64,000 nt of DNA, from assembly GCA_000002445.1 (NCBI GenBank), contig CM000208.1, positions 1,312,001 through 1,376,000 on the forward strand. The letters run 5' to 3'. Under the pieces are notes generated by a model. It was not told the DNA's origin. It searched no databases and saw nothing but the letters and a program-made list of their open reading frames with translations. Numbering within the stretch: the first letter of the stretch is position 1; each line of letters opens with the position of its first letter. The position numbers and the translations under genes were made by a program. This document shows positions 5,392-41,571 of this stretch, in pieces. This DNA comes from Trypanosoma brucei. Its lineage: Eukaryota.

Positions 5392-5394
<3 letters not shown>

Positions 5395-5424
<30 letters not shown>
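5395..5424. repeat. (AT)15 perfect dinucleotide microsatellite, continuing imperfectly to about 5450
   Basis: atatatatatatatatatatatatatatat, followed by gtatatatgtatatctatattt. Confidence 0.9.
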
Positions 5425-5436
<12 letters not shown>

Positions 5437-5678
5437 ATCTATATTTCTTCACTTATATTTATGTATGTACATCGGCTACAAAGAGAAATAGGAAAGTCGC
5501 GGCTCGTAGCGGTTGACCCTCTCTTTAGTACCGAAAGAAGGGGAAACAGGATCTTAACGTTACAAGTGACACTGAAACAACCACAACGCTTGCAAAATAG
5601 GTATTTCTGCGCATTTGCAGGTATTCTTTTGTGTGAAAGGGAATTTTCTTCTCTGCCTCACTGTGTGTTGAGTCAACC

Positions 5679-6815: not shown

Positions 6816-7572
6816 AAGTGTTGGAGTGCCGAAACATGGTGTAGAACGACATGTGTATTTATTTTAGGTGTCACCGTTGTTATCGACGGGCAAGGACTGT
6901 GAGAGGACATTACATGTTGGTGGCGGAGTGTGGGGTGCGTGGGTAATGAAATACTATGAACGAAGGGTTGTTTTACACATTAATATTTTACGTACTATGT
7001 GGTTTCAAGTGCAAATGTATTGGCGGCTGTTGTTCGGCACAGGGTGAACCAACACTCAGTTTCCGTTTCTCTTACTTTATACCGCTGTTTCTTTCCTTTC
7101 ATTAAACTTCTTCTTTTTACTTTTTTTTTTTCTTCTTCAGTCATGTATTTCGTGTGTTGTGGCGTCGAGGACGCGATATGGTGCTAGAAGTCATTGTCTT
7201 TTTTTCCCTATTTTGCTTTAAAATATCGCATTAACAATATTTCGTGTGTGTTCGTGGGAGGGGGGCGGCGGTGGGGAAGGCGCGATAGCGCCTAACAAAC
7301 AAAAAGGATGGAATATAAGTTGGGTCTTTCCACCCAGCTGCTTTTTTTTTTTTTGCAGTCCCCTCACATGGGGTAGGTCGAATGCTGCAGGAAATTTAAA
7401 AAAAAAACGGTAATTTTTGGTTATCTTCAATGTTTTTTAAAAATGTTGGAATCATCTTTTTATTTTTATTTTAAAGAAACTCTCCTTTCCCTCTCTTTTC
7501 CATCATGCTACTCGGTGGTTTCACACATGTAAATAAAAAGGGGGAGGATCACTCAGTTATCTTCCGAAGCAA

Positions 7573-21326: not shown

Positions 21327-21628
21327 GCGTAGGAACTCCACCATAGGAAGTATTGTTTGTCATGCTTTTATTCGTGGTTGTTGTCTCTTTTTTCTGTTTT
21401 CATGACTTGGTTTAATTTGTTGTAGGAACCACCTCGTCAGTATCTGGTGGAAGACCCCATGTATCACATTGTCTACCGTTGGTTTTATCACTTTAAAAAT
21501 CTCTTTCATTTTCTATCACCCCTCGGTTTGACATAATCGCTGCGCACTATTCTTATTGTTCGCGCGGTGAAGTGTGTCAACGTTGTGTTTCTGTAGTATT
21601 ACGTTGTGAGGAATTGTATTCCCCGAGA

Positions 21629-27600: not shown

Positions 27601-30600
27601 ACAGCTGACAAAATTGAAAGCAGTGTACATGCACCTTTTTGTCTTTTCAGTTGTGTGGTCCTTCGGTGCAACAGGGGACCGAGAGAGTCGTAAGCCCTTT
27701 GACTGTTTTCTGCGCACATCGTTGGCAAATTTGGGCGTGCTCATTTCACTCCCACCCATTGGATGTATTCAAGATTACGAGTTCTGCGTGGAGCAGGGGC
27801 GTTGGATCCCCTGGACCGAGCGACTCCCACCCTTCATGGCCAAGGTAACAGCGAACACCTTTGCGGAAATCATTGTGCCCACAGCTGATGTGGTGTGTTA
27901 CAAATTTCTCAACCGTTTGCTGCTGCAGAAGTCGTTCCACACGCTGTGCTGCGGTCCTACGGGTACGGGGAAAACAGTGGTACTCCAGCAGCTTTTGATG
28001 CACGAGATGCCAAAGGAGTTCACACCAATCTTCTTCACGTTTTCTGCTCGCACAAGTGCCAACCAAACGCAAGACCTTATCTTCTCCAAGTTTGAAGTCC
28101 GACGTCGTGCAACCCCGCAAATTTGGGGCGCCCCAGTCAACAAGAAATTTGTCATTCTTATTGACGATATGAACATGCCGGTGAAGGAGCAGTACGGCGC
28201 TCAACCACCTATTGAGATTTTGCGGCAGTACATGGATTACAAGGGATGGTATGATCGCAAGACGCGTGAGTTCTTTAATATTGTTGATATTGTCTTTTCT
28301 GGTGCTATGGGTCCACCAGGCGGTGGTAGAACACACATCAGCCAAAGATTCTTGCGACATTTTAATCTCATTGCGTTTCCAGAGGTTAATGAGGGAAGTA
28401 TGGACCGTATCTTTGGTTCCATTCTGGATGCATACTTCAAACCTTTTAGTGAGGAGGTTTGTCAACTGCTGCCACAGGTGTTGAAGGCATCCATTGCTGT
28501 GTTTAATACGGTAACCAAATCGCTACGCCCAACTCCGTCGCGGTCCCACTACTTGTTTAACCTGCGTGACCTTGCTAAGGTGATCAGTGGTTTAATAATG
28601 GCTACGCCCGAAACAACAAACTGCGCGGTTGGTCTTCTCCGCCTTTGGATTCACGAAGAGATGCGGACATTTAAGGATCGTCTCATCACTGACGCAGACA
28701 GACAATGGTTTGACCAACAGCTACGGAAGCAGGTCGAAGAGAGATTTCATATGCGTTTCAGTGAAGTGGTGCCCCCAGAAAGGGGCACTGACGGATTGCT
28801 TTTTGCGGATTTCATTGGGAAGAAGGACGTCGCTAATCGGTACCAAGAGGTGACCTCCCCGGAGGAGCTTGTCGCAGTTCTGAAGAAGAAGTTAGATGAG
28901 TACAACTTTGTTGCCTTCCACAAACTGCACATTGTGATGTTTTCGTATGCCGTTGAGCATATCTGTCGCATAGCCCGCGCCACCCGAAAGCCTAATGGCC
29001 ACGTTCTGTTGTTAGGCGTTGGTGGTTCAGGGAGGCAGTCCCTGTCGCGCATTGCGGCGTTTATTAATGACTTCGAAACCTTTCAAGTTGAGATTACGAA
29101 GGGATATTCGACAAATGCTTGGCGTGAAGACATTAAGAAGGCACTTCGGCGTGTGGCTTTTCAGAACAAACAGGTTCTCTTTCTTTTCACCGACACACAG
29201 ATTGTACATGAAGCGATGCTGGAGGACGTTAACAACCTGCTAAACTCAGGCGAGGTGCCGAACCTTTTTGAGGGTCCTGATTTGGACGAGGTGTTTACAG
29301 CCATGAAGCCTGTTTGCATTGCTGAGAATATTTCTCTCGACAAGGTGGGTATGTACGCTCGATTTGTCAAGTTTTGCAAGTTTAATCTTCACGTTTCCCT
29401 TTGTATGTCGCCTCTGGGAGAAACTTTCCGAGGACGTCTCCGGATGTTTCCAGCACTAGTGAACTGCTGTACAATTGACTGGTTTACAGCGTGGCCCGCT
29501 CAGGCACTGCACAGTGTTGCTCATAATTACCTCAGCAACATGAAATTACTCACCCCCAAGGAAGTGGAAAGCTGTACTGAACTTTGTGTAATGATACACG
29601 AATCTGTGGAGAAAATGTCGGAGCGCTTCCTCGAGGAGACACGGCGTCATGCGTACGTTACACCAACGTCATTCCTTGAGCTATTGCAAACTTTTAAACT
29701 TATTCTCGAGTCTCAAACGGCCAAGGGGAACATTACCAAGCAACGACTGCAGAATGGTATGGAAAAACTTCGTGAAACTGAAGACGCAGTAGCTGGTTTG
29801 CAGCAGTCTCTGGCCGAAAACCAGCCCATTCTTTTGCAGAAGAGCGAATCTATCAAGAAACTGATGGAGGAGATAATCGTTCAAACAGAATCCGCCGAGG
29901 AAACGAAGCAGGAGGCCGAGAAGGAAGAAGCTGCCGTCGCTGCGAAGCAAAGGGAATGTGCTTCCATCGAGGCCGAGGCTCAGGAACAGCTTAGTGAGGC
30001 GCTGCCAGAGTTGGATCGGGCTTTAGACAGTTTGGCGAACTTGAAGTCTTCACAAATTACTGAGGTGGCTGGTTATAAGGCGCCAACACCCGGTGTCGTC
30101 ATGACGATGCAGGGTATTGCTATTCTTTTCCAGATCAAACCTGTTATGCGTGCTGGTGGTCCCATGGAAGAGAAGAAGCCCGATTACTGGGCAACAGCAA
30201 AGGAACAACTCTTGAACAACCCCAATGCATTATTGCAGCGGCTCATTAACTACGACAGGGAGCACATCAATGAACGCCTTATCCAAGCTGTAATGCCCTT
30301 AGTTTCTTCGGAAGACTTTACGCCAAAAAAGATTGCGGGTGCCAGCCAGGCTTGTGCTGCTATGTGCCAGTGGACGCACGCTATGGTCAAGTTTCATTAT
30401 GTTAACAAGAAGGTGGAACCACTGCGGCAACGGCTAGCCGTTGCGCAGGAAGATAACCGAGTGTTCCAAGAAAAGCTCCGCATTGCTCAAGTGCGGCTGG
30501 AAGCGGTCGCAATGAAGTTGGAGCGGTTGCAAGACGATAAGACCCGTGCTGAAAACGAGATGCAGGAACTAGAGCAGGTGGTTCGTATGACCGAGTTGAA

Positions 30601-33600
30601 ACTTGCGAGGGCGGATATGCTTATTGACGGTTTGGGAGGGGAGAAAAAGAACTGGACAAATACCGTGCGGGAGATTGACGAGAATTTTAAGTATTTAGTG
30701 GGCGACATGCTAGCTGCTGCGGGGCAGATTGCATACGTTGGACCGTTCACAGCGACGTATCGCAGTGAACTACTAACGCAATGGACAGCTGAGCTGGATA
30801 GACATAAGCTCGTCCACCACCCTCAACTTTCCGTCTTTTACACCATGCAGGACCCCATTGTGACACAGGGTTGGAATGTAAATGGCCTGCCTACGGATAT
30901 GCTGTCAGTCGAAAACGCCCTCATCATGAGCAACGCACGCCGGTGGCCACTCATGATTGACCCACAAACTCAAGCAAATAAGTGGATCAGACAGACATAT
31001 CCCGATGGACTAGAGATCCTGAAACCAACCCAAAAGGATTTAGTGAAGCGCATTGAGTACGCCGTTCGATCGGGACGGCCCGTACTATTGGAGAATGTAG
31101 GGGAAAATATTGATGCCACCCTTGCGCCGCTTCTAGCCAAACAGACGTTTATAGAGGGTGGACAAGAGATGATCCGTCTTTCCGAGCATCCGATCCCGTG
31201 GAATCCAGATTTTAAGTTCTTTATGACCACAAAGTTACCGAACCCGCACTATATCCCCGAGGTAATGGTGCAGGTGACGCTGCTTAACTTTTTCATTACT
31301 CCTCAGGGACTTGAAGACCAGCTGCTTGGTGTTGTGGTTGGGCAAGAACGAAAGGAACTAGAGATGCGTAGGAGCGATCTTATCAAGACAAATGCAGCGA
31401 TGCGGGCGGAGGTTGCAAACATCCAAACGACGATTTTGCGGAAGATGGAGGAGGTCAAGGGTGATATTCTAGATGATGAGAGCCTCATTGAATACTTGAA
31501 ACAGTCGAAAACCACAACCAAGGAGATCAATGACAAAGTGGCGGAAGCAGAGCAGGCTGAAATAGAGATTAACGCCAGTCGTGAACTCTACCGCCCGGTG
31601 TCGCGTCACTCCTCATGCTTATACTTCTGCTGCGCGACGCTTTCCAATGTAGACCCTATGTATCAATATTCTTTGCAGTGGTTTGTTCGGTTGTTTATTA
31701 ATGGCATTGAATCGTCGGAAGCTTCCGACAACCTGGAGACGCGGCTTCAGAATCTTCAGGACTACTTTACGTACAGCTTCTACCAAAATATCAGTCGCTC
31801 ACTTTTTGAGAAACACAAAATCATGTTTTCGTTCTACTTGTGTATACGGATTCTGCAGCAGAAGGACGCCATCGACGAGTCTGAATTCCGCTTCCTCCTT
31901 CAAGGCCCTTCGGTAACATTCAAAACGATGCCTAACCCATCACCCTCCTGGCTCACGGAGTCTACGTGGTTAGATCTCTGTTATCTGTCGAAGAAGTTCC
32001 CTGTGTTCAACGGTTTCGAAGCTCACATTTCCAGAAATGTCGATTTCTACAGGGGAATTTTCATGTCTCCCTCAGCGCACAAGGAGGCGCTGCTACCACC
32101 GTATGAGAAGGAAGTTACTCCGTTGCAGAGGATGATGTTCCTCAGATGTCTTCGACCCGATAAGTTAATGGAAGCTGTGCAAGATTTCGTCAGCAGTGAG
32201 CTAGGAGAACGCTTCATCCGCCCACCGCCGTTTGACTTATTTACCTCCTTCAAGGAATCCAGTCCAACAGCGCCGCTTATTTTCATACTCTCTCAGGGAG
32301 CGGATCCATTCGAGGACTGGAAGAAGTTTGCGGAGCAAAACAACATGGGTAAAAAATTGTCGGATATTTCACTAGGTCAAGGCCAAGGTCCGAGAGCCGA
32401 GCGGATGCTGCAAGAGGGCATGGAGAATGGTACATGGGTACTCTTGCAGAACTGCCACCTGGCAACATCATGGATGCCAACACTTGAACGGTTAGTAGAG
32501 GGAATGAAGTACGGTATTCATTCCTCTTTCCGACTGTGGCTTACCTCTATGCCTAGTCCTCACTTCCCTGCAACGGTTCTGCAGAACGGTGTGAAGATAA
32601 CCAATGAACCACCTAAGGGAATGCGAGCTAATGTCACACGTTCTGTGTTGAGTTACCGTCCGGATTACCTGGACACTTGCAAGAAGTCAACAGAGTTTAA
32701 AAAGCTTTTCTTCGCCATGTCGTTCTTCCACGCCCTTATCCAGGAGCGTAGGAAGTTTGGTCCGCTAGGGTGGAATATTCCGTACGAGTACACTTCCGGA
32801 GATTTGGGTTGTTGTGTGGCGCAGATTCGAATGTTCCTTGACAAGTACGAAGAAATTCCCTACAAGGTCATCAAGGAATTGAGTGGAAACATTCACTATG
32901 GCGGCCGTGTTACGGACGATTGGGATCGTCGAACACTGAATACATTGTTGGAGGTGTTTGTACATCCTGATGTGATGAAGGATGGCTACAAATTTTCTCC
33001 GTCGGGCACCTACAATTCTATACCTGTTGGATCACAGAAGAGCTATCTAGATTACATTGAGACCTGGCCGATGAATACAAACCCTGAAATATTTGGCTTG
33101 CACGAAAATGCAGACATCACGTGCGCACGTAATGAAACATTTGAGACATTAGAGGCAATTCTCTCTCTGCAGGGCGAGGCTGCGCCGAAGAGTGCCTCAG
33201 GTCAGTCTCCGGATGAGGTGGTTGTGGAGTTAGCTAAACTTATTAGAAAGCGCGTAAGTGAGCCATTTAATATTCCCGATTTTCAGAAGAAGTATCCAAC
33301 AATGTATGAAGATTCTATGAACACTGTGTTGGTGCAGGAGGCCATTCGATTCAATCGTCTCACCGCTGTTGTGCGCGAAACGCTGGAAGCCCTTCCCCTT
33401 GCTATTAAAGGTGAGGTGCTGATGAGCCGGGAACTGGAGGAGGCATACCGCTGTCTCTACAATAATCAAGTGCCTGCACAATGGGCTGAACGTGCTTATC
33501 CGAGTCTCAAACCACTTGGAGCTTGGGTGGATGACTTGGTTATGCGTTTGGAGATGATTTCATCATGGTACGAAGAGGGTCATCCGTCTGTTTACTGGAT

Positions 33601-34057
33601 TTCAGGATTTTACTTTCCTCAAGCATTCCTTACAGGCATTTTACAGAATTTTGCGCGTAAGATGCAAATATCCATTGATACGGTCAGTTACGGCTTCGAG
33701 TGGATGAAAGATGACCCTGAGAAAATCACTAGCCATCCAAAAACTGGTTGCTATGTCCACGGTGTTTTTATTGAAGGTGCAAGGATTGACCGCAGCAGCC
33801 TCAAACTTGTGGAGTCGATGCCGAAGGTGCTGTTCGAACAGGCTCCTTTATTGTGGTTACAACCCATCATAAACAGAGAGAAGCCAACTGATAGTGTTTA
33901 CATTTGCCCACTTTACAAAACCCTGCGTCGTGCAGGTACGCTAAGCACCACTGGGCACTCCACAAACTATGTTCTCACTGTCGAGATACCTACGTCCGTT
34001 TGTCCCAAACACTGGGTGAAGCGCGGCGTTGCTATGGTTTGCGCGTTGAATACGTAA
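21629..34057 (+). CDS. Dynein heavy chain (about 4142 aa), probably axonemal (inner-arm-like) by length
   Basis: The track ORF starts at a GTG at 21572; the first ATG is at 21629. AAA1 P-loop GPAGTGKTE, AAA2 GPTMGGKTS, AAA3 GPTGTGKTV, AAA4 GVGGSGRQS. Coiled-coil stalk and MTBD, AAA5/6 and C-terminal domain present. The tail is short relative to cytoplasmic dyneins. Confidence 0.93.
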   Translation: MSISYKELIALRRAHLARQGQNAPLSPGRSELQASQVGASSETAVVRVDDVSPQLEIEGRPQETLPEWLVDEQQPTVGLSHLPWSQSVEGRYTTEEEVPRAEEPKVMVPHETIKGDLPRMEVMRRWRRRYDKYSLLELLKEKNVVADGRFSWEESEANQSLLPLHVFDNVSYEELSPSDWMSKRDETGGVVCLALPDANVCSWVRGWVTGWDEETNVLTVRLCDAGAATGDPKQTKGTVVRLHRLYVCFNAENPENFAERFAGAYRMRNLLKSVLRQQTFVDAIPTDEFQTVDPYALERVHQLCLNTPKLLQKQDLLQVTKVLNDVRSDYSHVMNRELLNHTVKNGALQELLGGAELPVDRPHVQVQKCGVHELRHNCFRSIVSSFLSNSITARSEIAIAILQRVREGNEVLMARRVFRTSKVPDEQVTLTLNAFEDVQVTSVRENAQFVREKWIPGITEFIKRICSDCDENEDVTLKVRECDYETCKVRGLMNTITLQMEDTLRWVLTNALSEFASFVEECAKYTVKVHSMFDVEVVPHPDLKRARIVPLFKVSLVDGEERNLVWSSSISDFLSMLTEVVYRCLALHTGARSVERRLFTFLFDSHTAFLSSLHDDDPACTSCLRRLTEAVERAGKPLDEYIATFGDVQELIALDVKQYIEDFKQKFPTTKGVEEEILRYNQKQKDVSEMIPRQKDLGLFQVDCTDLKKRLTWKCNQVVNSILDVMLNRANTKATFVINSFQELRDTLVKPTRTPEEVVDRQDFIKAIPEKVFDLQAVISEIQQVYAILDTFHVPFSEEDFNKKWTAISWPARLDDDIIQRQVDLEQTKRSLTLNLRKSQEAFSEKVVQLQHTVASFNRRSNVNKMNEIVGDVNNILENIRQLLETANEFNTHENLLLLEKTDYTMVRDLQSDFEPYASLWLTVHDWNVALREWQARPFPEIDAEAMEKRVMNNYHTISRCCVDPKLTELLTEIAKKTKAKIEEFQPILPFVKFLRTEGMKDRHWDQISKEIGRDIRPGKTIMTISDVKPLMTVEYEEILLRISEVASREYQIETSLRKMKEEWEKISFDVQPYKSTGCYLVTKDAVDTIQEVLDDQMLITQSLGFSPFKKMFEADIAAWEASLKRVQCVMDEWLICQKAWLYLEPIFQSEDITRQLPRETERFKKVNGNWHYLTNEAHEKKLVLDFCAIPDSLSKFKDNNDELELIQRGLNQYLASKRSAFARFYFLSDDELLTILSEARDPRKIQPHFRKLFENIMEIDMRDPGNEMFGMYSQMREYVPFDQGILPRRNIENWLSEIEHMMRISIRSQLSKGVKDCAEKGRQNLILNAPGQVAIAVSQIMWTASCESSIKEHGSLEPYMPKARENLMSLVETVRQPLSTLQRVNISGLITIEVHAKDIVEKLTEDKVDSIYAFEWISQLRSYWENNDCYLRQVEAQFQYGGEYLGNSTRLVVTPLTDRIYLTLTGAMHMFLGGAPAGPAGTGKTETVKDLAKAVAKQCVVFNCQEGMTYASMGKFFKGLAQAGAWACFDEFNRIDVEVLSVVAQQVSTLQEASRSKQFRIPFEGTEIIVDPSYSVFITMNPGYAGRTELPDNLKVLFRPVACMVPDYAMIAEIRLFSFGYSNSRTLAQKMVATFRLSSEQLSSQDHYDFGMRAVNTVISAAGLMKRECPDEEEDVLLLRALHDSNAPKFLDEDLLLFSGIISDLFPGVELPTRDYGSLLSTLKEKAVTFRVEPTDMFLKKCIQLYEMNILRHGQMLVGPTMGGKTSASRVLQAAMTKLRVELNEERYAQVCIHALNPKSITMAQLYGGFDDATGEWRDGLIGELFRIAARDTTDTKQWIYFDGPVDALWIESMNTVLDDNKKLCLISGEIIAMTPYMSCWFEVEDLAVASPATVSRAGMIYMEPLGCIGVDAFIKTWKDYRLPSSMEPYKDELEKLCSELFPLLIEFVQQQVVEYCPSVWPNLLISCFNIYEVLLEPFTPTRIAEVPEEQLTKLKAVYMHLFVFSVVWSFGATGDRESRKPFDCFLRTSLANLGVLISLPPIGCIQDYEFCVEQGRWIPWTERLPPFMAKVTANTFAEIIVPTADVVCYKFLNRLLLQKSFHTLCCGPTGTGKTVVLQQLLMHEMPKEFTPIFFTFSARTSANQTQDLIFSKFEVRRRATPQIWGAPVNKKFVILIDDMNMPVKEQYGAQPPIEILRQYMDYKGWYDRKTREFFNIVDIVFSGAMGPPGGGRTHISQRFLRHFNLIAFPEVNEGSMDRIFGSILDAYFKPFSEEVCQLLPQVLKASIAVFNTVTKSLRPTPSRSHYLFNLRDLAKVISGLIMATPETTNCAVGLLRLWIHEEMRTFKDRLITDADRQWFDQQLRKQVEERFHMRFSEVVPPERGTDGLLFADFIGKKDVANRYQEVTSPEELVAVLKKKLDEYNFVAFHKLHIVMFSYAVEHICRIARATRKPNGHVLLLGVGGSGRQSLSRIAAFINDFETFQVEITKGYSTNAWREDIKKALRRVAFQNKQVLFLFTDTQIVHEAMLEDVNNLLNSGEVPNLFEGPDLDEVFTAMKPVCIAENISLDKVGMYARFVKFCKFNLHVSLCMSPLGETFRGRLRMFPALVNCCTIDWFTAWPAQALHSVAHNYLSNMKLLTPKEVESCTELCVMIHESVEKMSERFLEETRRHAYVTPTSFLELLQTFKLILESQTAKGNITKQRLQNGMEKLRETEDAVAGLQQSLAENQPILLQKSESIKKLMEEIIVQTESAEETKQEAEKEEAAVAAKQRECASIEAEAQEQLSEALPELDRALDSLANLKSSQITEVAGYKAPTPGVVMTMQGIAILFQIKPVMRAGGPMEEKKPDYWATAKEQLLNNPNALLQRLINYDREHINERLIQAVMPLVSSEDFTPKKIAGASQACAAMCQWTHAMVKFHYVNKKVEPLRQRLAVAQEDNRVFQEKLRIAQVRLEAVAMKLERLQDDKTRAENEMQELEQVVRMTELKLARADMLIDGLGGEKKNWTNTVREIDENFKYLVGDMLAAAGQIAYVGPFTATYRSELLTQWTAELDRHKLVHHPQLSVFYTMQDPIVTQGWNVNGLPTDMLSVENALIMSNARRWPLMIDPQTQANKWIRQTYPDGLEILKPTQKDLVKRIEYAVRSGRPVLLENVGENIDATLAPLLAKQTFIEGGQEMIRLSEHPIPWNPDFKFFMTTKLPNPHYIPEVMVQVTLLNFFITPQGLEDQLLGVVVGQERKELEMRRSDLIKTNAAMRAEVANIQTTILRKMEEVKGDILDDESLIEYLKQSKTTTKEINDKVAEAEQAEIEINASRELYRPVSRHSSCLYFCCATLSNVDPMYQYSLQWFVRLFINGIESSEASDNLETRLQNLQDYFTYSFYQNISRSLFEKHKIMFSFYLCIRILQQKDAIDESEFRFLLQGPSVTFKTMPNPSPSWLTESTWLDLCYLSKKFPVFNGFEAHISRNVDFYRGIFMSPSAHKEALLPPYEKEVTPLQRMMFLRCLRPDKLMEAVQDFVSSELGERFIRPPPFDLFTSFKESSPTAPLIFILSQGADPFEDWKKFAEQNNMGKKLSDISLGQGQGPRAERMLQEGMENGTWVLLQNCHLATSWMPTLERLVEGMKYGIHSSFRLWLTSMPSPHFPATVLQNGVKITNEPPKGMRANVTRSVLSYRPDYLDTCKKSTEFKKLFFAMSFFHALIQERRKFGPLGWNIPYEYTSGDLGCCVAQIRMFLDKYEEIPYKVIKELSGNIHYGGRVTDDWDRRTLNTLLEVFVHPDVMKDGYKFSPSGTYNSIPVGSQKSYLDYIETWPMNTNPEIFGLHENADITCARNETFETLEAILSLQGEAAPKSASGQSPDEVVVELAKLIRKRVSEPFNIPDFQKKYPTMYEDSMNTVLVQEAIRFNRLTAVVRETLEALPLAIKGEVLMSRELEEAYRCLYNNQVPAQWAERAYPSLKPLGAWVDDLVMRLEMISSWYEEGHPSVYWISGFYFPQAFLTGILQNFARKMQISIDTVSYGFEWMKDDPEKITSHPKTGCYVHGVFIEGARIDRSSLKLVESMPKVLFEQAPLLWLQPIINREKPTDSVYICPLYKTLRRAGTLSTTGHSTNYVLTVEIPTSVCPKHWVKRGVAMVCALNT

Positions 34058-35339
34058 AAACATTCGTCGAAACGCCATGTACCTGAGAGGAGGTCATTAT
34101 TTCCTGTTTTTGTTGTGTGTCTGTGTAAACCTGTTTATGTGTTTAGTTGTCTTTTTTGTTGTTGGTTGACTTGAACATTTAGATGCAGGACAGTTCCGTC
34201 TACTTATTTTTCTTACCCACCTCCCCTTTTTTATCTTTTTTTCTCCTTCGTTAACTTTTCAAACCCACTTTATGTACACAGTATTCTATAGAGAAATAAG
34301 GGGGGGGAAGAGACCGTTTTTCTTTGATGACTCGGGACTTTCCAGTGGGTGGATGTACACGTTCGATACGCCATGAGTATGTATTTCTCTACACCCATAT
34401 ACATCTCGTACTAACTTTCTTTTATTTCTGAACCTCGCACTTCAAGACTCGTACTTGTATTTTCCCCGTTCACCATATTTCATTTCCTCTCTTCCTCCAT
34501 CTTTTTGTTCCTTCGGATAATATACGTTACATATAGCGTCCTTATATTCAGCAAGGGGGGAAAATGACAGAAACAGCAACAGTTCGATGATTTGGGTGGC
34601 AATTCGACTACCTCATTGCGACCTATGGTGAGGTTATTGTTTTTTTTGTACGTGTGGGAGGGGAATTCGCTACTACTTTCTGTGGGGGGATTGACTCGCT
34701 GCAATTTCCTCTTGTGAACATATGAGTCGCGTGTCTTGCGTTACCATGATCGGACAGAGTGATGGTGAAGGGCATATGCTTTTGTTATGCAATATGTGTG
34801 CTGGTGAAGTAATTATTCCGTGTGTGTGTTTGTGTGTGATCTACCTTCTCATTGGTATCATATATGTGATGCTGTGGTGTGTAACGTGCTCGAGTGGATG
34901 TATGAATAAAATGAGACTACGACAGAATATTTCATTTCTTCGTTTTCTAATGCTCTTGTCCTACACAACTCCTCAATGTAGTCAAGTGACAAATCTATTA
35001 ATGTGTCCCCACCTGTTGTTTCCGATCCTTACGGCCATTTCCCGTCAACAACACGCGCTGCATGTAAATATGCAGAGATTCGTACAACTCTGTAGTTTGT
35101 GGAATAGCGCAAGTTGTTTTAGAGGTTGAATGAACCCGGGTTGAGTTGCATAGAGCTACGATTACAATGGAGGTACAAGCTATCAACACGGATTGAAGGA
35201 GAGGTATAACTAATGCAGGTATACGAGTATTTAAATAGTGTATATTACCTCTTCCCTTTGAGGGCAAATATATTCTTAACTTTATAACAAAGAATAGGTG
35301 TACAACGTTAATGTATACAATACTTCTGGTTTGCTGTTT

Positions 35340-35412
35340 TAAAAATTATTGTCTTTGTTCCTTTTTCGTACAAATTACTGTTACGACTTCACTTCCCCTT
35401 CCTGTTGGTCTT
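35340..35412 (+). promoter_or_regulatory. Pyrimidine-rich tract upstream of S10 copy 1 (candidate splice-acceptor region)
   Basis: ttattgtctttgttcctttttcgtacaaattactgttacgacttcacttccccttcctgttggtcttcttcatt. Confidence 0.4.
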
Positions 35413-35451
35413 CTTCATTTATGCCTGACCACCGGACAGCGCATCAGTAAC

Positions 35452-35970
35452 ATGACCACATACGTCCCAAAGAGCTCGCGCGATGATGTATACCGCTTCT
35501 TCTTCACGGAGGGCGTTGTTTCCTGCAAGAAGGACCCCCTCGGCACGTGGAAGGGAACTCTTGGTGGCAAGACGTTCAAGCTTCCCACTCTACAGGTAAT
35601 GCAACTGATGCGTTCCCTGAAGAGCCGTGGCCTCATTAAGGAGCAATTCGCCTGGCGCCACTTCTACTGGACTCTAAATGATGAAGGCATCAACTACATG
35701 CGGAAATACCTCTATCTGGGAGCAGATGCTGTGCCGAACACTCACAAGGTGGATCACAAGACCTTTGAACGCGAAGGCGGACGCGGGCGTGGGCGCGGTG
35801 ATGGCCGTGGCCGTGGGCGCGGGTTCGGACGTGGCCGTGGCGAGGGCCGTGGCTTCGGACGTGGACGCGGTGAAGGCCGTGGCCGTGGTTTCCATAGTGA
35901 GCGCGACCAGTACCGCGCCGGTGCTGCTGCCCAAGGCGAGGATGCCGCGCCCGTTGCTGCGGTTGAGTAG
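35452..35970 (+). CDS. RPS10: 40S ribosomal protein S10 (eS10) with RGG/GRG-repeat C-terminus, copy 1 (172 aa)
   Basis: Homology starts at the internal ATG at 35452 (MTTYVPKSSRDDVYRFFF...INYMRKYL). The C-terminal GRGRGRGDGRGRGRGFGRGRGEGRGFGRGRGEGRGRG is typical of kinetoplastid S10. Confidence 0.9.
   Translation: MTTYVPKSSRDDVYRFFFTEGVVSCKKDPLGTWKGTLGGKTFKLPTLQVMQLMRSLKSRGLIKEQFAWRHFYWTLNDEGINYMRKYLYLGADAVPNTHKVDHKTFEREGGRGRGRGDGRGRGRGFGRGRGEGRGFGRGRGEGRGRGFHSERDQYRAGAAAQGEDAAPVAAVE
35767..35890 (+). repeat. GRG/RGG coding minisatellite within S10 (ggccgtggc / ggacgcggg units); repeated identically at about 37202..37325
   Basis: Periodic gg(c/a)cg(t/c)gg(c/t) units encoding the (G-R-G)n low-complexity tail. 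Confidence 0.8.
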
Positions 35971-36187
35971 GAACGGTTTGGGTTACTGATGGCATTGTGT
36001 TTGTGTGGTGTTTATTTTACTAATTTATGCTTAACTGCGTCTCGTCTTGGTCATCTTACGGTGGTCATTGTTGGTCGTTGGTTTCTACAACCACTAAATG
36101 GCTGAGCGGTTATTTTTGTTTAAGGGGGCTGGAGGCGGACTCTATCATTCTTATGATTCTTTTTGTTTTTCCCAAACTAGGTAGACA

Positions 36188-36607
36188 GTGAGTGCTGACG
36201 GGTCCGAAGACTTGTGCGATGATGTGTACCGCTTCTTCAGGGAGGGCGTTGTTTGCTCCGAGAAGGACCCCCTCGGCGCGTGGAAGGGAAGTCTTGGCGA
36301 GAAAACTTTTAAAATTCTCAATGCGCAGTTTACAGAAGTGTTAAAATCGCCAAAGAGTCATGGCCTTGTCAAAGAACAGTCTCCTCGGCACAGCGTGTGG
36401 TGGACGCTGAATGTCGACGGCGTGAACTACATGCGGAAATACCTCTGCTTAGACGGGGATGTGATGCCGCCCCGTGACAAAGTGGATGCGGAGCCACACA
36501 AAAGCGACGCCACAAATGGCAGTTGTGGTGGGCGCGGAGGGGGTGGGAGACGCGGTGGATTCGGTTTTTTTTGGGAGGGGTGGTCCTCCTCCTACAGCAG
36601 AAGATAG
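36188..36607 (+). pseudogene. Degenerate S10-like paralog between the two S10 genes; no ATG start (begins at GTG directly after an in-frame TAG); probably a pseudogene or highly divergent relic
   Basis: Translation ...DVYRFFREGVVCSEKDPLGAWKGSLGEKTFKIL...WWTLNVDGVNYMRKYL...GGRGGGGRRGGFGFF aligns with S10 along its whole length but is strongly diverged. In-frame TAG at 36182..36184, then ACA, then GTG. The first in-frame ATG lies deep inside the conserved core. Confidence 0.6.
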
Positions 36608-36886
36608 GAATGGATTTCCTTCGGTTGAGAAATGAGAACTTTTGGGTTCTTGTGTGACGGTTTGTCCGCAGAGTGACTTGTTAATTTTCATCAATACATA
36701 CACCCCTTAAAGTCTTCCCAGCGTGGAGTAGGCTATGCGCTACGTTACCGTTCTCATTTTGTTTCCTCGAAATATTAAGTCAAATTTATCTAAATTTGTA
36801 TCTTGGTTTAGGGTAGCCGACCACATCTTTGCTATTATCGCTCTATTCCACCTTTTTTTTCTTTTACAACGACAAATAGGCAAACA

Positions 36887-37405
36887 ATGACCACATACGT
36901 CCCAAAGAGCTCGCGCGATGATGTATACCGCTTCTTCTTCACGGAGGGCGTTGTTTCCTGCAAGAAGGACCCCCTCGGCACGTGGAAGGGAACTCTTGGT
37001 GGCAAGACGTTCAAGCTTCCCACTCTACAGGTAATGCAACTGATGCGTTCCCTGAAGAGCCGTGGCCTCATTAAGGAGCAATTCGCCTGGCGCCACTTCT
37101 ACTGGACTCTAAATGATGAAGGCATCAACTACATGCGGAAATACCTCTATCTGGGAGCAGATGCTGTGCCGAACACTCACAAGGTGGATCACAAGACCTT
37201 TGAACGCGAAGGCGGACGCGGGCGTGGGCGCGGTGATGGCCGTGGCCGTGGGCGCGGGTTCGGACGTGGCCGTGGCGAGGGCCGTGGCTTCGGACGTGGA
37301 CGCGGTGAAGGCCGTGGCCGTGGTTTCCATAGTGAGCGCGACCAGTACCGCGCCGGTGCTGCTGCCCAAGGCGAGGATGCCGCGCCCGTTGCTGCGGTTG
37401 AGTAG
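36887..37405 (+). CDS. RPS10: 40S ribosomal protein S10 (eS10), copy 2 (172 aa), nucleotide-identical CDS to copy 1
   Basis: The CDS is identical to 35452..35970 and about 18 nt after the stop (gaacggtttgggtta) is also identical. The flanks on both sides are unrelated. Confidence 0.9.
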   Translation: MTTYVPKSSRDDVYRFFFTEGVVSCKKDPLGTWKGTLGGKTFKLPTLQVMQLMRSLKSRGLIKEQFAWRHFYWTLNDEGINYMRKYLYLGADAVPNTHKVDHKTFEREGGRGRGRGDGRGRGRGFGRGRGEGRGFGRGRGEGRGRGFHSERDQYRAGAAAQGEDAAPVAAVE

Positions 37406-37842
37406 GAACGGTTTGGGTTATTCGTTTACCATCTCCATTCATAATTTTTCACACCCGTTTTCTTAAATTTGAAGATGTTTCATTTTATATTTTTAATCCT
37501 ATACTAAGGAGGAAAATTGTGTGCTCTGCTTTACTTTTGTTAGTGTCAAGCAATGTTATTATTAGTTAGCTACTTCTCCTTGCCTGTTTTTCTCGTGTCT
37601 ACCCTTGTTTCAATACTATCGTTGTGGACTTATATCCGCTCAAATTCATAACGTGAGGCTTAGTTCAATACAGAAATAGAACTTTTGCATTTGGGTGTGA
37701 AGTCACAATTGAGGGGAAAGGGGTGTGGTGAGGTGGCAACAAAGTTCAAAGGACAAAAAATCGGAGAAAGAGTAGAAGGGGAAGGTAAGATTTTCTTTTC
37801 TGTGCTGCTTCGTTTTGATCGCCTCTTAATATATTGTTTTCT

Positions 37843-40800
37843 ATGCTTAACACTGTGAAATGGGCTGAGCACTCAGGTGCCGAAGACGAGCCTAACCCAC
37901 CCGTCTACTCCCTCTCCTATCATCCGAGTGGAGAAACGATCGTGGCGGGTTGCGGTGTTCGTGTGGTGGTGTTCGATGCAACCACCGGCGCTGTGCGACT
38001 CTCACTCAAGGGACATACAGACGCGGTCTACACAGTGACGTGTTTCTCAGATGGCAAGTATTTTGCCAGTGGAGGGGCTGACAAGACAGTTATTCTGTGG
38101 ACTATCGATGGAGAGGGTGTATTGAAGTATCAGCACCGAGAGTCCGTACAGGCGCTGGCACACAACCCTGTAACGGGAGGACTTGTTTCAGTTGCAGGTC
38201 GCGATTACGGTACGTGGTCGGCTGAACAAATGAAAGTTGGGAAATCTTCATTACCAGCAAAGGGGCTTTGTTGCGCGTGGTCACGCAATGGACAAACATT
38301 GGCTATTGGTCTCTCTGACGGCAGTATCATTTTCGTACCTTCTCAGGGTGGTGAGAAGGTTACAGTGAAGCGCACTGCACCCGTTTGGGCGGTGGTATTC
38401 TCTCCTATTTCGGAAAGCGGAGCTGACGTCCTCGTCGTGGGGTCTTGTGATCGCCGTCTCTCCTTTTACACCAGCGACGGTAAGCCGGCAAGCAAAGAGA
38501 AGGAAATTTCCTGTGAACCATGCTCGCTCAGCTTTTATGGGGGAGGCAAGTTTTTGCTTGTTGGGGGGAGCAACTGCGAGGTTTCCCTCTTCACAAAGGA
38601 CGGCAACTTGCTTGTGAAAGTAGCCGATGCGGACGATTGCATATGGTCCGTACAGGCCAGCCCAAAGCATCAACAGCTGTGTTGCGGGACAAACAGCGGT
38701 GTTTTGAAGGTGGTGGATATAAATATACCAGTGGTACACAGCATTTTCAATGATCAGTTTGTATTTCGCGACAAAATGTCTGACGCCGTCGTTCACCAAC
38801 TTACGCTTGACAAGCGACTGCGTATTCCATGCAATGGCTACATCATCAAGCTGGCTGTTTATAGGGATCGCGTAGCTGTACAACTGTGTGATAAATTCAT
38901 AGTGTTCGAGTTGTTCTATGACGATGAGCGGAAGATGAAATTTCAGAACGTTGCAATCATCCGTAAACGGGTGAGCTGTGATCACCTTTGTGTTACTTTC
39001 AATGGTCTTGTGATATGCTGTGATCGTCGCCTAACCATGTATGATTTCCAGGGTAATATGCGCCAGGAGTGGACAGTGGAAAGCTCTGTTTGCTGCATCA
39101 AAGTGATTGGGGGAGTTGAAGGGAGGGAATGCCTTCTGCTTGGATTAAAGAACGGTTTGACGCTTCGTATGTTTGTCGATAATCCCTTCCCGACCACGCT
39201 GGCGAAGGTAAATAATTCAGTCAAGGCTCTTGATCTCAGTTGCGACAAGACGAAACTGGCGGTCGTCGATGATAACGGGTTGCTGCAAGCGTTTGATTTG
39301 CGGAACAAGAATGAGGTTCTCTTCATGGCAAATGGTGTTCAAGCGGTGGCGTGGAATTCAGAGTATGACGATATGATTTGCTACACAACTGCGGTAAATA
39401 CATTGAACATAAAGACCGGGGCTCTGCCTCCACATGAGCAGAGATTGCCGGGGTACGTTATTGGATTCAAGGCCAATCGTGTGTTCAATGTTTGTGGTAC
39501 TATTGTAGACAAGATTGATGTACCGCATTCCCAGTCTCTGTATCGGTACATAGAAAAGAGGGATTTTGAATCTGCACACCGCATCGCCCGTCTTGGCGTA
39601 CCCGATGGGGATTGGAAAATGCTTGGCATGCACGCGATGATGCACCTGCAACTCGACGTTGCTCGGAAGGCGTTTATTAACATCCGTGAGGTTAAACTCG
39701 TCGAACTGCTTAACCGCCTGGAGATGCAGCAGCGTCTAAAGGGCTCCAAAGGTGAAGAAGATGATGGACTCCTTATGGGTGATATTTTTGCTTTTCAAGG
39801 AAAGTATCAGGAGGCGTCACGACACTTCTTAAAGGCTGGACATGAAAATAAAGCGATTGATATGTTCTGTGACTTAAAAATGTGGACTGATGCGCAGCGC
39901 GTCTGTAGCAACGAATCTCATTTAAAGGAGTTGATTCGGCAGCAGGCGCGGTGGGCGGAGGATTCGGAGAACTATATTGAGGCTGCGGCGTTGTTTCAAG
40001 CTTGTGGGGACAAATCCAGAGCTATTGCAATGTTGTGTAATGCTGGTGACGCAGATAAGTTGATGGAGATGTGCCGTGCGATGTCCAAGTCTGAGGTGGC
40101 TCTCATTACGGAGTGTGCGAACTACTTTAAGAAGCAAAAGTTAATGCAGCCCGCGATGTACGCTTATGAGAAGGTTGGTGACTATCGCTCACTTATATGT
40201 CTTCATATGGAAATGAAAGAGTGGCGAAAGGCCTTTGCCCTCCTTGATCTTTATCCGCAATACATTCGTGAGGTGTACGTACCATGGGCCAACTGGCTGG
40301 CAGATAATGGGAATTTCACGGCGGCACTTGATGCATACCGTAAAGCCAAGTGGCCCAGGGAAGCTGTGCGCATGATGGAATCTCTTGCAGCCAACAGTGT
40401 GATATGCCGGAGGTTTCAAGAAGCGGCTTTTTATTTCATCCACTTAGCAGGAGAGTACGGAGTGCTAGAGGATGATCAGCAGCTTACCGAAGCAGAGTGG
40501 GCCGTCCGTATGAAGCGTAGCGCTGAGTGCGTCCGCCGCGCAGAAATTTACTACGCTTACCACTTTGTTTACCTACACGTGACCCAGCCTTTCACCTACG
40601 ATGAGGTAACATTGTTCAACGCTTCGAGGTTCGTAATTGCAATGACCAGTAACACCACTGTTCCTCTCAATGTTGGTAGAGGTGAGGTACTCTACACGCT
40701 GGCGCATATTGCTAGTCAATTAGATATGACGCGCACTGCGCGTATGGCCTTTGAGCGGCTGCACAACGTTGTACTGCCCACTAAAGTAATGGAGCAAATA

Positions 40801-41571
40801 GATGTGGATAGTCTTGTTTTACGCAGCAAGGGTTTCAATGATAATGAAGATCTGCTCGATGTTTGTTTTCGTTGCAAACAGATCGTTCAGCAATTTGCTA
40901 ATGCTGGAGACCGCTGTCCCACTTGTGCCCATCCTTTCGTTCGTTCGTTCGTGACTTTTGTGAATCTTCCGCTGGTAGAGTTTACCTTGTCAAATGAACT
41001 TAGTGATACAGAAGCAGAGCGAATAATTTTGACGGGAGCGGGGCGAAAGAATACAGAGAATAAAACCGACGGGAACAATGGCGAGTACAATGGGTGGAAG
41101 GCAGATACAGGTGCTGATGTCATCACGTTCGCGGAAGAGGAAGACAACATTGATGCCCTGATGGATCACCAGTTGGCAGCGTTGGGTCGAGGTGGAGCTA
41201 TGGGCACCGATCCATTCAGCGCGCAACTAAAATACATTTTACGGCCAGGGCGGACAAACAAAGGCTATCAACCCTTTGTCGTAAATGCCGATATGCTTTG
41301 CAGAATGCGTCGTGATGAGGTGTTCATTGTAAAGGCCGGATTTGGAAAGCTGCCGGTGCAAAACAAGTACTATCGTCTAGTGAACCGGAGTGTAGGAATT
41401 ATTCTATGTCCAGGTTGTCAGCACTTTTTCAAAGATGATGATTACGAGTATGAGTGTATGAAGGGTAACGGTTGCCCACTTTGTCAGTACAGGATGGGAA
41501 AGAAGCCGGAGAAATCAATGACTAAAGTTCTCAATGATGTTCTTGCCTCGATGGAGAAGAAAAAGGAGTAG
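37843..41571 (+). CDS. IFT122: Intraflagellar transport protein 122 (IFT-A subunit), about 1242 aa
   Basis: The track ORF starts at a TTG at 37834; the first ATG is at 37843. N-terminal WD40 repeats ([46 protein letters not shown]), central TPR-like helical region, and C-terminal zinc-finger-like cysteine pairs ([22 protein letters not shown]). Size and architecture match IFT122. Confidence 0.82.
   Translation: [1242 protein letters not shown]

What the first reader, a model, noticed from the sequence alone, without database searches (positions are those of the whole stretch)
36188..36607. Diverged S10-like copy with no ATG, wedged between two identical S10 genes
The two flanking S10 genes are nucleotide-identical across the whole CDS. 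The copy between them has diverged at most codons. It has lost its initiation codon (TAG-ACA-GTG where the functional copies have ...AAC-ATG-ACC). Its C-terminus has collapsed to GGRGGGGRRGGFGFF. It still stays open for 139 codons and keeps the core blocks DVYRFF, KDPLG.WKG.LG.KTFK and NYMRKYL. This implies gene conversion between the outer copies has skipped the middle one. The middle copy could be a decaying pseudogene. It could also be a neofunctionalised S10-domain protein translated from an internal or non-canonical start, or an RNA-level regulatory decoy that shares the S10 mRNA's UTR-binding factors.
Basis: seen in the sequence. Interest (0 to 1): 0.65.

Follow-up and report, generated by a model that had tools for sequence, protein, structure and literature searches.

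The report
Dead ribosomal protein S10 gene copy
The sequence wedged between the two identical ribosomal protein S10 genes of Trypanosoma brucei chromosome 10 is a decaying third copy (a pseudogene), patched in the past by gene conversion from its neighbours; this is an ordinary outcome of tandem gene duplication.

Summary
Two eS10 (RPS10) genes (35452-35970 and 36887-37405; Tb927.10.5360/5370) are identical over 534 nt. Between them, at 36188-36635, lies a diverged third copy.

The ancestral ATG of that copy is now GTG, with a TAG two codons upstream. One codon of the invariant FFF motif is deleted. The RG-rich tail is about 71 nt shorter and frameshifted. 31 of 67 residues invariant in trypanosomatid eS10 are changed.

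The copy is present in T. b. gambiense and T. equiperdum. It is absent from the syntenic S10-S10 pair of T. vivax, T. cruzi, T. melophagium and another trypanosomatid. T. congolense could not be obtained.

Between strains it changes as fast as intergenic DNA, with dN/dS about 0.9. The flanking genes show only synonymous changes, three of them shared by both copies.

The retained "core blocks" are conserved at the nucleotide level with almost no synonymous change (mosaic test p = 0.0005). This points to old gene-conversion patches, not protein-level selection.

The overall dN/dS of 0.36 looks low, but a calibrated neutral simulation gives similar values.

Published ribosome profiling shows footprints only over an out-of-frame 41-codon ORF at the first AUG, not over the rest of the S10-like frame.

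Verdict: a non-processed pseudogene, of low interest.

The parts
35452..35970 (+). Left functional eS10 (RPS10) gene, Tb927.10.5360, 172 aa.
   Evidence: ORF and translation. Pfam S10_plectin E = 5.7e-34. 100% identical to annotated T. equiperdum/T. brucei S10. Gene IDs.
35971..36187 (+). 217-nt spacer between the left S10 and the relic. It carries a polypyrimidine tract (36157-36173) and the first downstream AG (36179-36180), i.e. a typical trans-splice acceptor.
   Evidence: Sequence and tract scan. The spacer length equals the 217-257 nt S10-S10 spacers of T. cruzi, T. melophagium and T. vivax. Its role in processing is inferred.
36182..36190 (+). TAG-ACA-GTG: an in-frame stop two codons upstream of the ancestral start codon, which has mutated from ATG to GTG.
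   Evidence: Alignment with both functional copies. The same GTG is present in T. b. gambiense.
36188..36635 (+). Body of the eS10 pseudogene. The homologous end, GTTGAG + AAATGA, is at 36624-36635 in the +1 frame.
36218..36298 (+). Young block 1 (alignment columns 11-38), a probable gene-conversion tract. It has 8 differences in 81 nt and includes the 3-nt deletion of one F of the invariant FFF motif, at 36232/36233.
   Evidence: dS 0.11 and omega 0.83 in the young blocks.
36299..36418 (+). Old core (columns 39-78). 51 of 120 nt differ, and synonymous sites are saturated (12 of 16 identical-residue codons changed).
36419..36445 (+). Young block 2 (columns 79-87, G.NYMRKYL). 2 differences in 27 nt, including a 22-nt stretch identical to S10.
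36482..36635 (+). Collapsed tail. It is about 71 nt shorter than the S10 tail, which is not a multiple of 3. It contains a T8 run at 36565-36572 and an out-of-frame TAG at 36605-36607 that ends the ORF. The ancestral ...VE-stop end is readable only in the +1 frame.
36219..36344 (+). 41-codon ORF in the +1 frame, starting at the first AUG after the predicted splice acceptor (MMCTASSGRALFAPRRTPSARGREVLARKLLKFSMRSLQKC). Vasquez et al. 2014 list it as 'candidate CDS' getorf_Tb927_10_v5_+_12339.
   Evidence: ORF. (Table S5 of PMC3973304: footprint coverage 63x, 100% of the ORF covered, no peptides).
36636..36886 (+). 251-nt spacer between the relic and the right S10, with a polypyrimidine tract at 36851-36865 and AG at 36878-36879.
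36887..37405 (+). Right functional eS10 gene, Tb927.10.5370, identical to the left copy.

Best explanation
This is a non-processed, tandem-duplicate pseudogene of the cytosolic ribosomal protein eS10.

How it arose (inferred). The two-gene S10 array shared by trypanosomatids became a three-gene array in the lineage leading to T. brucei, presumably by unequal crossing-over. The spacers of 217 and 251 nt match the normal S10-S10 spacer.

How it decayed (shown). The middle member lost its AUG, its N-terminus, one codon of the invariant FFF motif, and most of its RG tail together with the tail's reading frame. Two short stretches were later overwritten by, or exchanged with, the functional neighbours through gene conversion. 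That is why the 'core blocks' look conserved. They have since decayed again at the neutral rate.

The outer copies (shown). They stay identical because selection and continuing conversion homogenise them. The middle copy is now too diverged to take part in that exchange (inferred).

What the locus does now (inferred). It sits inside a polycistronic transcription unit and keeps a polypyrimidine tract and AG, so it is probably still trans-spliced and polyadenylated. That splice site probably also sets the 3' end of the left S10 mRNA. This follows from the established coupling of polyadenylation to downstream trans-splicing in trypanosomatids (own knowledge). Scanning ribosomes meet an out-of-frame AUG first and translate a 41-codon junk ORF. 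No S10-like protein is made.
For: 1. Disabling lesions are fixed in three genomes: ATG to GTG with an upstream TAG, a 3-nt deletion, and a tail with a net loss of 71 nt and a frameshift.
2. 31 of 67 residues invariant in five trypanosomatid eS10 sequences are changed.
3. Strain comparison of TREU927 against T. b. gambiense and T. equiperdum:
   - The relic has 10 differences in 448 nt (2.2%).
   - Intergenic DNA shows 1.4-1.8%.
   - The S10 CDS shows 0.6-0.8%, all synonymous.
   - The relic's changes are 7 nonsynonymous to 3 synonymous, omega 0.94.
4. In the young blocks omega is 0.83 (Nei-Gojobori) or 0.78 (ML). This is not different from 1 (2dlnL 0.11) and is different from the background of 0.04 (2dlnL 16.0).
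5. Synonymous divergence is mosaic, p = 0.0005. 4 of the 10 strain differences fall inside the conserved blocks, which make up 24% of the length. So those blocks are under no present constraint.
6. The copy is absent between the adjacent S10 pairs of T. vivax, T. cruzi, T. melophagium and an ENA trypanosomatid.
7. No protein resembles it more than ordinary S10 does, in 5.8 billion clusters or 1.84 billion representatives. The TREU927 gene IDs 5360 and 5370 are consecutive.
8. Ribosome profiling lists only the out-of-frame 41-aa ORF at the first AUG. It lists nothing for 36431-36607 or 36486-36635, and reports no peptides.
9. Natural non-AUG initiation is unknown in T. brucei. Experimentally it needs a +5C, and the relic has +5G.
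Against: - The frame has stayed open for 139 codons. Simulated neutral decay keeps it open in only about 5-6% of runs.
- The fitted omega of the old blocks is 0.25, with a nominal LRT against 1 of p about 0.013. After calibration this is p about 0.1. Combined with the open frame it is about 0.04. This is a weak hint that the copy was coding for part of its history.
- Ribosome-protected fragments exist over its 5' part at roughly 5% of the per-nucleotide coverage of S10, and their reading frame could not be determined.
- The between-strain sample is small: 10 substitutions from effectively two haplotypes.
Confidence: 0.85

Rival explanations
1. It is a diverged but still functional S10-domain paralogue. 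On this reading it is translated in the S10-like frame from the GUG at 36188 or another near-cognate codon, and gives a 139-residue protein with a short glycine/arginine tail.
For: - The frame is open for 139 codons, with P about 0.05 under neutral decay.
- Whole-history omega is 0.36, below 1 at nominal p = 0.006.
- The splice-acceptor signals are retained.
- Ribosome-protected fragments lie over 36219-36344.
Against: - Recent omega is 0.78-0.94, and the substitution rate is at or above the intergenic rate.
- The low whole-history omega is reproduced by neutral simulation.
- 31 of 67 invariant residues are lost, including 5 inside the recently shared blocks.
- A TAG lies two codons upstream and there is no AUG before codon 82.
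- The GUG context lacks the +5C needed for non-AUG initiation, and no natural non-AUG start is known in T. brucei.
- An out-of-frame AUG at 36219 comes first.
- No candidate CDS or footprint-covered ORF is reported downstream of 36344, and no peptides.
- There is no orthologue outside the T. brucei group and no similar protein anywhere.
Confidence: 0.04
2. It has an RNA-level or micropeptide function. One version is that the processed transcript acts as a decoy or regulator for S10 mRNA-binding factors. The other is that the 41-residue out-of-frame ORF encodes a functional small protein.
For: - Two blocks are conserved at the nucleotide level.
- The 41-aa ORF is covered by footprints and appears in the RIT-seq loss-of-fitness list of Vasquez et al..
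Against: - The conserved blocks accumulate strain differences at least as fast as the rest (4 of 10 in 24% of the length). Their conservation therefore reflects shared history, not constraint.
- The flanks share no detectable similarity with either S10 UTR. The two S10 genes themselves have unrelated flanks beyond 15 nt after the stop.
- There is no Rfam match.
- The copy is in the same orientation as S10, so it cannot form a double strand with S10 mRNA.
- The RIT-seq effect is expected anyway, because library fragments covering the relic will also target the essential flanking S10 genes or share 16-22 nt identities with them (inference).
- Three of the strain differences (36226, 36278 and the 36206/36210 neighbourhood) fall in or next to the 41-aa ORF, and it has no homologues.
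Confidence: 0.07
3. It was dead on arrival, for example created already truncated, and has been neutral for its whole history. On this reading the open frame is pure chance.
For: - The calibrated test does not reject neutrality for the old blocks (p about 0.1).
- An open frame occurs in about 5-6% of neutral runs.
- A 135-codon chance ORF exists in the neighbouring non-coding spacer, 34722-35129.
Against: The open frame and the low omega together give a combined p of about 0.04. The array spacing and the full-length homology from start codon to stop region indicate that a complete gene was duplicated.
Confidence: 0.3

Closest known systems
eS10 / RPS10 (Pfam PF03501 S10_plectin), Tb927.10.5360 and Tb927.10.5370
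   Same: It is homologous over the whole gene, from the start-codon position to the stop region. It shares T. brucei-specific states with its neighbours (V23, K34, N81, GGA35, AAA85), so it derives from the T. brucei-lineage gene.
   Different: It has no AUG. 31 of 67 invariant residues are changed. The FFF motif is shortened. The RG tail is truncated and frameshifted. Recent evolution is neutral. There is no orthologue in T. vivax, T. cruzi or T. melophagium.
Non-processed (duplicated) pseudogenes inside tandem gene arrays that evolve in concert, with mosaic gene-conversion tracts (own knowledge: for example globin and rDNA-like arrays, and tandem arrays in trypanosomatids)
   Same: It lies in tandem with its parents. 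It carries disabling lesions. Its divergence is patchy, with short young tracts. The functional flanking copies are homogenised.
   Different: Nothing essential differs. The only local feature is that the dead member lies between the two copies that continue to convert each other. It also lies in a polycistronic unit, where its splice signal probably still serves 3'-end formation of the upstream gene (inference).
Candidate CDS getorf_Tb927_10_v5_+_12339 of Vasquez et al. 2014 (PMC3973304, Table S5)
   Same: It has the same coordinates (window 36219-36344) and the same 41-residue sequence.
   Different: The paper lists it as an anonymous candidate small CDS with no motif. Here it is shown to be the +1 frame of an S10 pseudogene, starting at the first AUG left after the loss of the real start codon.

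Membership tests
Functional eS10 (RPS10) gene | Sequence match to the S10_plectin domain | tested here: met
   Pfam PF03501: E = 1.5e-13, 51 bits against a cut-off of 26.9, residues 15-95. The functional copy scores 116.5 bits.
Functional eS10 (RPS10) gene | AUG start and a reading frame colinear with orthologues from start to stop | tested here: not met
   The start position is GTG, with TAG two codons upstream. The first in-frame ATG is codon 82. The tail has a net loss of 71 nt, and the ancestral end lies in the +1 frame.
Functional eS10 (RPS10) gene | Retention of residues invariant among trypanosomatid eS10 | tested here: not met
   31 of 67 invariant columns are changed or deleted, including all of MTTYVPK..R, QVMQLMR and AWRH.Y.
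Functional eS10 (RPS10) gene | Purifying selection comparable to orthologues (omega about 0.05) | tested here: not met
   Background omega is 0.04-0.05. For the relic: 0.94 between strains, 0.78-0.83 in the young blocks, and 0.25-0.36 over the whole history. The whole-history value is not significant after calibration.
Functional eS10 (RPS10) gene | Orthologue at the syntenic position in related species | tested here: not met
   It is present in T. b. gambiense and T. equiperdum only. T. vivax, T. cruzi, T. melophagium and an ENA trypanosomatid have two adjacent S10 genes with 217-257 nt (up to about 640 nt) spacers and no third hit. T. congolense could not be retrieved.
Non-processed (duplicated) pseudogene | Homology to a neighbouring functional parent, including position in the array, and no retroposition marks | tested here: met
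   It lies between the two parents with normal-length spacers and has its own polypyrimidine tract and AG upstream. No poly(A) tract follows it.
Non-processed (duplicated) pseudogene | Disabling lesions | tested here: met
   Start-codon loss, a codon deletion in an invariant motif, and a frameshifted, truncated tail. All are shared by three genomes.
Non-processed (duplicated) pseudogene | Neutral evolution | tested here: met
   This holds for the recent period: rate 2.2% against 1.4-1.8% intergenic, 7 nonsynonymous to 3 synonymous changes, omega 0.8-0.9. For the deep history the result is inconclusive.
Non-processed (duplicated) pseudogene | No protein product in the parental frame | not testable with these tools
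   Only indirect evidence is available. Table S5 of PMC3973304 reports no peptides and no footprint-covered ORF downstream of 36344. Raw reads and proteomes could not be re-analysed.
Gene-conversion mosaic | Significant spatial clustering of synonymous divergence between the paralogues | tested here: met
   Maximum chi-square on identical-residue codons: 13 of 16 against 4 of 34, permutation p = 0.0005. dS is 0.11 in the young blocks and saturated in the old blocks. The direction of transfer was not determined.
Regulatory RNA / decoy sharing S10 UTR elements | Shared UTR sequence with the S10 mRNAs, or nucleotide-level constraint | tested here: not met
   blastn self-comparison finds similarity only inside the CDS (36204-36446). 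The S10 flanks themselves diverge 15 nt after the stop and at -1. Strain differences are not depleted in the conserved blocks. No Rfam family matches.

The most novel reading that the evidence does not exclude
The relic is not inert. On this reading its processed transcript, which is engaged by ribosomes at a few per cent of the S10 level, either yields a T. brucei-specific 41-residue peptide or a GUG-initiated S10-like protein, or tunes expression of the essential flanking S10 genes. Tuning could act through competition for factors or through its splice site setting the 3' end of the left S10 mRNA. This would explain why the frame has stayed open and why the region scores in RIT-seq.
Probability: 0.07. 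Interest if true: 0.45.

Novelty: new member of a known kind. Interest (0 to 1): 0.15.

Why it matters
It matters little for biology at large. It is a useful annotation point for T. brucei, for four reasons.

1. An unannotated eS10 pseudogene lies between Tb927.10.5360 and Tb927.10.5370. It explains an anonymous 'candidate CDS' from ribosome profiling and its apparent RNAi fitness effect.
2. It warns that short-read assemblies may collapse this array, as in T. equiperdum OVI, and that automatic annotation calls spurious ORFs on it, as in T. b. gambiense.
3. It is a compact worked example of concerted evolution of the outer members of an array around a dead middle member.
4. It shows that a pairwise dN/dS well below 1 against a codon-biased parent does not by itself show function.

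Tried and rejected
- Protein search with the middle ORF returned only S10. The exhaustive representative search gave only ordinary S10 at 37-41% identity. So there is no family of 'S10-like' proteins.
- T. congolense could not be tested. Its IFT122 protein is in the protein collection, but no contig is on record, and no T. congolense S10 appeared.
- Rfam scan of 34000-38000 at E <= 1 found nothing.
- Literature search for an intermediate gene ID (Tb927.10.536x) or for an S10 pseudogene in T. brucei found nothing.
- I first read the ML result (omega_mid 0.25-0.36, LRT against 1 at p = 0.006-0.013) as evidence for a past coding phase. A null simulation showed that the test is anti-conservative. 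The simulation used neutral nucleotide evolution at intergenic base composition and was conditioned on an open frame. Median omega was 0.58, and 11.5% of runs reached the observed statistic. I downgraded the claim to a weak hint.
- I first read the '% of reads in frame' value of 20.6% for the 41-aa ORF as evidence that its footprints are in another frame. The same column is below 33% for nearly all entries, including proteomics-validated ones. It is therefore uninformative, and I dropped that argument.
- I considered cross-mapping of S10 footprints onto the relic. The longest identity inside 36219-36344 is 16 nt, below the 20-nt read minimum, and bowtie2 would prefer the perfect S10 match. Cross-mapping is therefore unlikely, but it was not testable without the reads.
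- I considered pseudogene-to-gene conversion as the source of the T. brucei-specific S10 replacements (I23V, T34K, E81N). Their density is not higher in the shared blocks than elsewhere, so there is no evidence for it.

Full report
**Where we are.** The window is Trypanosoma brucei TREU927 chromosome 10. The S10 gene Tb927.10.5370 is listed at Tb927_10_v5:1349780 and a published small ORF at 1349112-1349237. Both fit window coordinate + 1,312,893. The gene order is:
- dynein heavy chain, Tb927.10.5350 (21572-34057)
- S10, Tb927.10.5360 (35452-35970)
- the feature under study
- S10, Tb927.10.5370 (36887-37405)
- IFT122, Tb927.10.5380 (37843-41571)

The two S10 gene IDs are consecutive, and no paper in the library mentions an ID between them.

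**Observation.** It is confirmed in every detail.
- The outer CDSs are 519/519 identical. Identity continues 15 nt past the stop and ends at position -1 upstream.
- The middle ORF, 36188-36607, is open for 139 codons.
- Its first codon, GTG, aligns with the ATG of the functional genes. TAG sits two codons upstream. The only in-frame ATGs are codons 82 and 93.
- It still matches Pfam S10_plectin (E = 1.5e-13).
- 113 of 333 aligned nucleotides differ.
- Homology continues past the ORF. The ancestral end ...GTTGAG-stop is at 36624-36635, but in the +1 frame.
- The tail is about 71 nt shorter than in S10, which is not a multiple of three.
- One codon of the invariant FFF motif is deleted at 36232/36233.
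- 31 of 67 residues invariant in five trypanosomatid eS10 proteins are changed.

**Distribution.**
- The same relic, with the same GTG, is at the same place in T. b. gambiense DAL972 and in a T. equiperdum chromosome assembly.
- T. vivax, T. cruzi (two strains), T. melophagium and an uncultured trypanosomatid keep the synteny dynein ... S10-S10-IFT122. Their two S10 genes are directly adjacent, and tblastn finds no third hit.
- In all of them the two copies differ by 0-6 nt. A concertedly evolving pair is therefore ancestral.
- The relic shares T. brucei-specific states with the T. brucei S10, both replacement and silent (V23, K34, N81, GGA35, AAA85). It is also closer to that gene than to any other species' S10. 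It therefore arose in the T. brucei lineage after the split from T. vivax.
- The T. brucei spacers (217 and 251 nt) match the normal inter-S10 spacer. This fits a triplicated array whose middle member died.
- T. congolense could not be obtained.

**Is it constrained now?** I compared TREU927 with T. b. gambiense and T. equiperdum.
- The relic has 10 substitutions in 448 nt (2.2%).
- Intergenic DNA has 1.4-1.8%.
- The S10 genes have 0.6-0.8%, all synonymous.
- The relic's changes are 7 nonsynonymous to 3 synonymous, omega 0.94.
- Three of the silent S10 differences are present in both outer copies of each strain. This shows ongoing homogenisation that does not involve the relic.

**Why the core blocks look conserved.**
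- Among codons that encode the same residue in relic and S10, 13 of 16 carry a silent change in columns 38-75. Only 4 of 34 do elsewhere (maximum chi-square, permutation p = 0.0005).
- The blocks 36218-36298 and 36419-36445 have dS of about 0.11. The rest is saturated.
- Protein-level selection would not spare silent sites. Present nucleotide-level selection is contradicted because 4 of the 10 strain differences fall inside these blocks, which are 24% of the length.
- The simplest reading is old, short gene-conversion tracts.
- Inside them omega is 0.83 (Nei-Gojobori) or 0.78 (ML). This is indistinguishable from 1 and clearly above the S10 background of 0.04. The changes hit residues invariant in all orthologues (T19R, C25S, K26E).

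- Pairwise omega against S10 is 0.37.
- A branch model gives omega 0.36 for the relic lineage and 0.25 for the old blocks. Nominally these are below 1 (2dlnL 7.6 and 6.1).
- I simulated the null: neutral nucleotide evolution at intergenic base composition on the relic lineage, keeping only runs with an open frame.
- In 52 replicates the fitted omega had a median of 0.58. It was at or below 0.25 in 9.6% of runs, and the observed statistic was reached in 11.5%.
- A low whole-history omega is therefore what a dead copy of a codon-biased gene gives. It is not evidence of function.
- The frame stays open in 4.5-5.8% of neutral runs.
- Taken together (about p = 0.04), these leave a weak hint that the copy was coding for part of its history. 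Nothing stronger can be said.

**Expression.**
- A polypyrimidine tract (36157-36173) and AG (36179-36180) precede the relic, aligned with the acceptor of the right S10. In a polycistronic unit this should give a processed RNA. By the known coupling of polyadenylation to downstream trans-splicing (own knowledge), it should also define the 3' end of the left S10 mRNA. Both steps are inferred.
- The first AUG after that acceptor is 36219, in the +1 frame. It opens a 41-codon ORF.
- Exactly this ORF is listed by Vasquez et al. 2014 as candidate CDS getorf_Tb927_10_v5_+_12339. It has 63x footprint coverage, 100% of the ORF covered, and no peptides. For comparison, S10 has 23,580 footprint reads on 519 nt.
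- No candidate is listed for the ATG-initiated ORFs further downstream (36431-36607 and 36486-36635), although they meet the length and distance criteria.
- This is what scanning from the first AUG predicts, and it argues against read-through of the S10-like frame.
- The table's in-frame percentage is below one third for almost all entries and cannot be used.
- The ORF also appears in that paper's RIT-seq loss-of-fitness list. This is expected, because RNAi fragments covering the relic also target the essential flanking S10 genes (inference).
- Natural non-AUG starts are unknown in T. brucei. Engineered CUG initiation needs a strong context with +5C, and the relic has GTG AGT.

**Other checks.** There is no Rfam match. 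The relic's flanks show no similarity to either S10 UTR, and the two S10 genes themselves have unrelated flanks. No protein in two very large collections is closer to the relic than ordinary S10.

**Conclusion.** This is a non-processed eS10 pseudogene in the middle of a T. brucei-specific three-member array. It carries old conversion patches from its neighbours, now evolves neutrally, and is transcribed and scanned but does not make an S10-like protein. It is ordinary in kind. Its practical value is for annotation and as a caution about reading pairwise dN/dS.

Noticed in passing
L002 (T. equiperdum OVI, GCA_001457755.2) 4606-6957: This assembly has a single S10 gene between dynein and IFT122. 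It carries the upstream flank of the left copy (99% identical) and the downstream flank of the right copy (100%), with no N run. It is either an assembler collapse of the 534-nt identical repeat or a real unequal-crossover deletion that removed one S10 and the relic.
   Followed up: partly
L003 (T. b. gambiense DAL972) 3836-4243, 4425-5084, 5483-5785; window 34722-35129, 35311-35970, about 36369-36671 (minus strand): The gambiense gene calls here look spurious. They are a 135-aa ORF in the spacer, the left S10 extended to 219 aa from an upstream ATG, and a 100-aa minus-strand ORF lying antisense on the relic's G-rich tail inside a plus-strand polycistron.
   Followed up: no
window 34058-35451, compared with L004 3886-7701, L005 3011-6970, L007 2443-6123 and L010 636-1568: Other trypanosomatids have two genes between the dynein gene and S10: a fast-evolving 310-817 aa protein and a well conserved protein of about 200 aa (62-77% identity). 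Neither has any tblastn match in the 64-kb window. The 200-aa gene is also missing from the T. vivax locus. T. brucei has only a 1.4-kb spacer there.
   Followed up: partly
L005 (T. cruzi, CM026648) 7297-7783: The first S10 copy of this T. cruzi assembly is split into two tblastn pieces in different frames near the N-terminus and is annotated as 158 aa instead of 161. It is either a frameshift in the assembly or a second example of a damaged array member.
   Followed up: no
window 35784-35816 / 35856-35888 and 37219-37251 / 37291-37323: Each functional S10 gene has an internal 33-nt direct repeat (91% identical) in its RG-rich tail. Tail length differs between species (161-177 aa proteins). 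This repeat structure probably favoured the large deletion seen in the relic's tail.
   Followed up: no
window 36219-36344 (Tb927_10_v5:1349112-1349237): A published 'candidate CDS' with an apparent RNAi loss-of-fitness phenotype (PMC3973304, Tables S5 and S8-like file 10) is the +1 frame of this S10 pseudogene. The phenotype is most simply cross-knockdown of the essential flanking S10 genes.
   Followed up: partly
window 35452-35970 and 36887-37405, CDS positions 57, 303, 471 and 18: Three silent differences between TREU927 and T. b. gambiense/T. equiperdum are present in both S10 copies of each genome. A fourth (position 18) is in the left copy only of gambiense/equiperdum. This is a direct snapshot of concerted evolution within the T. 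brucei group.
   Followed up: yes
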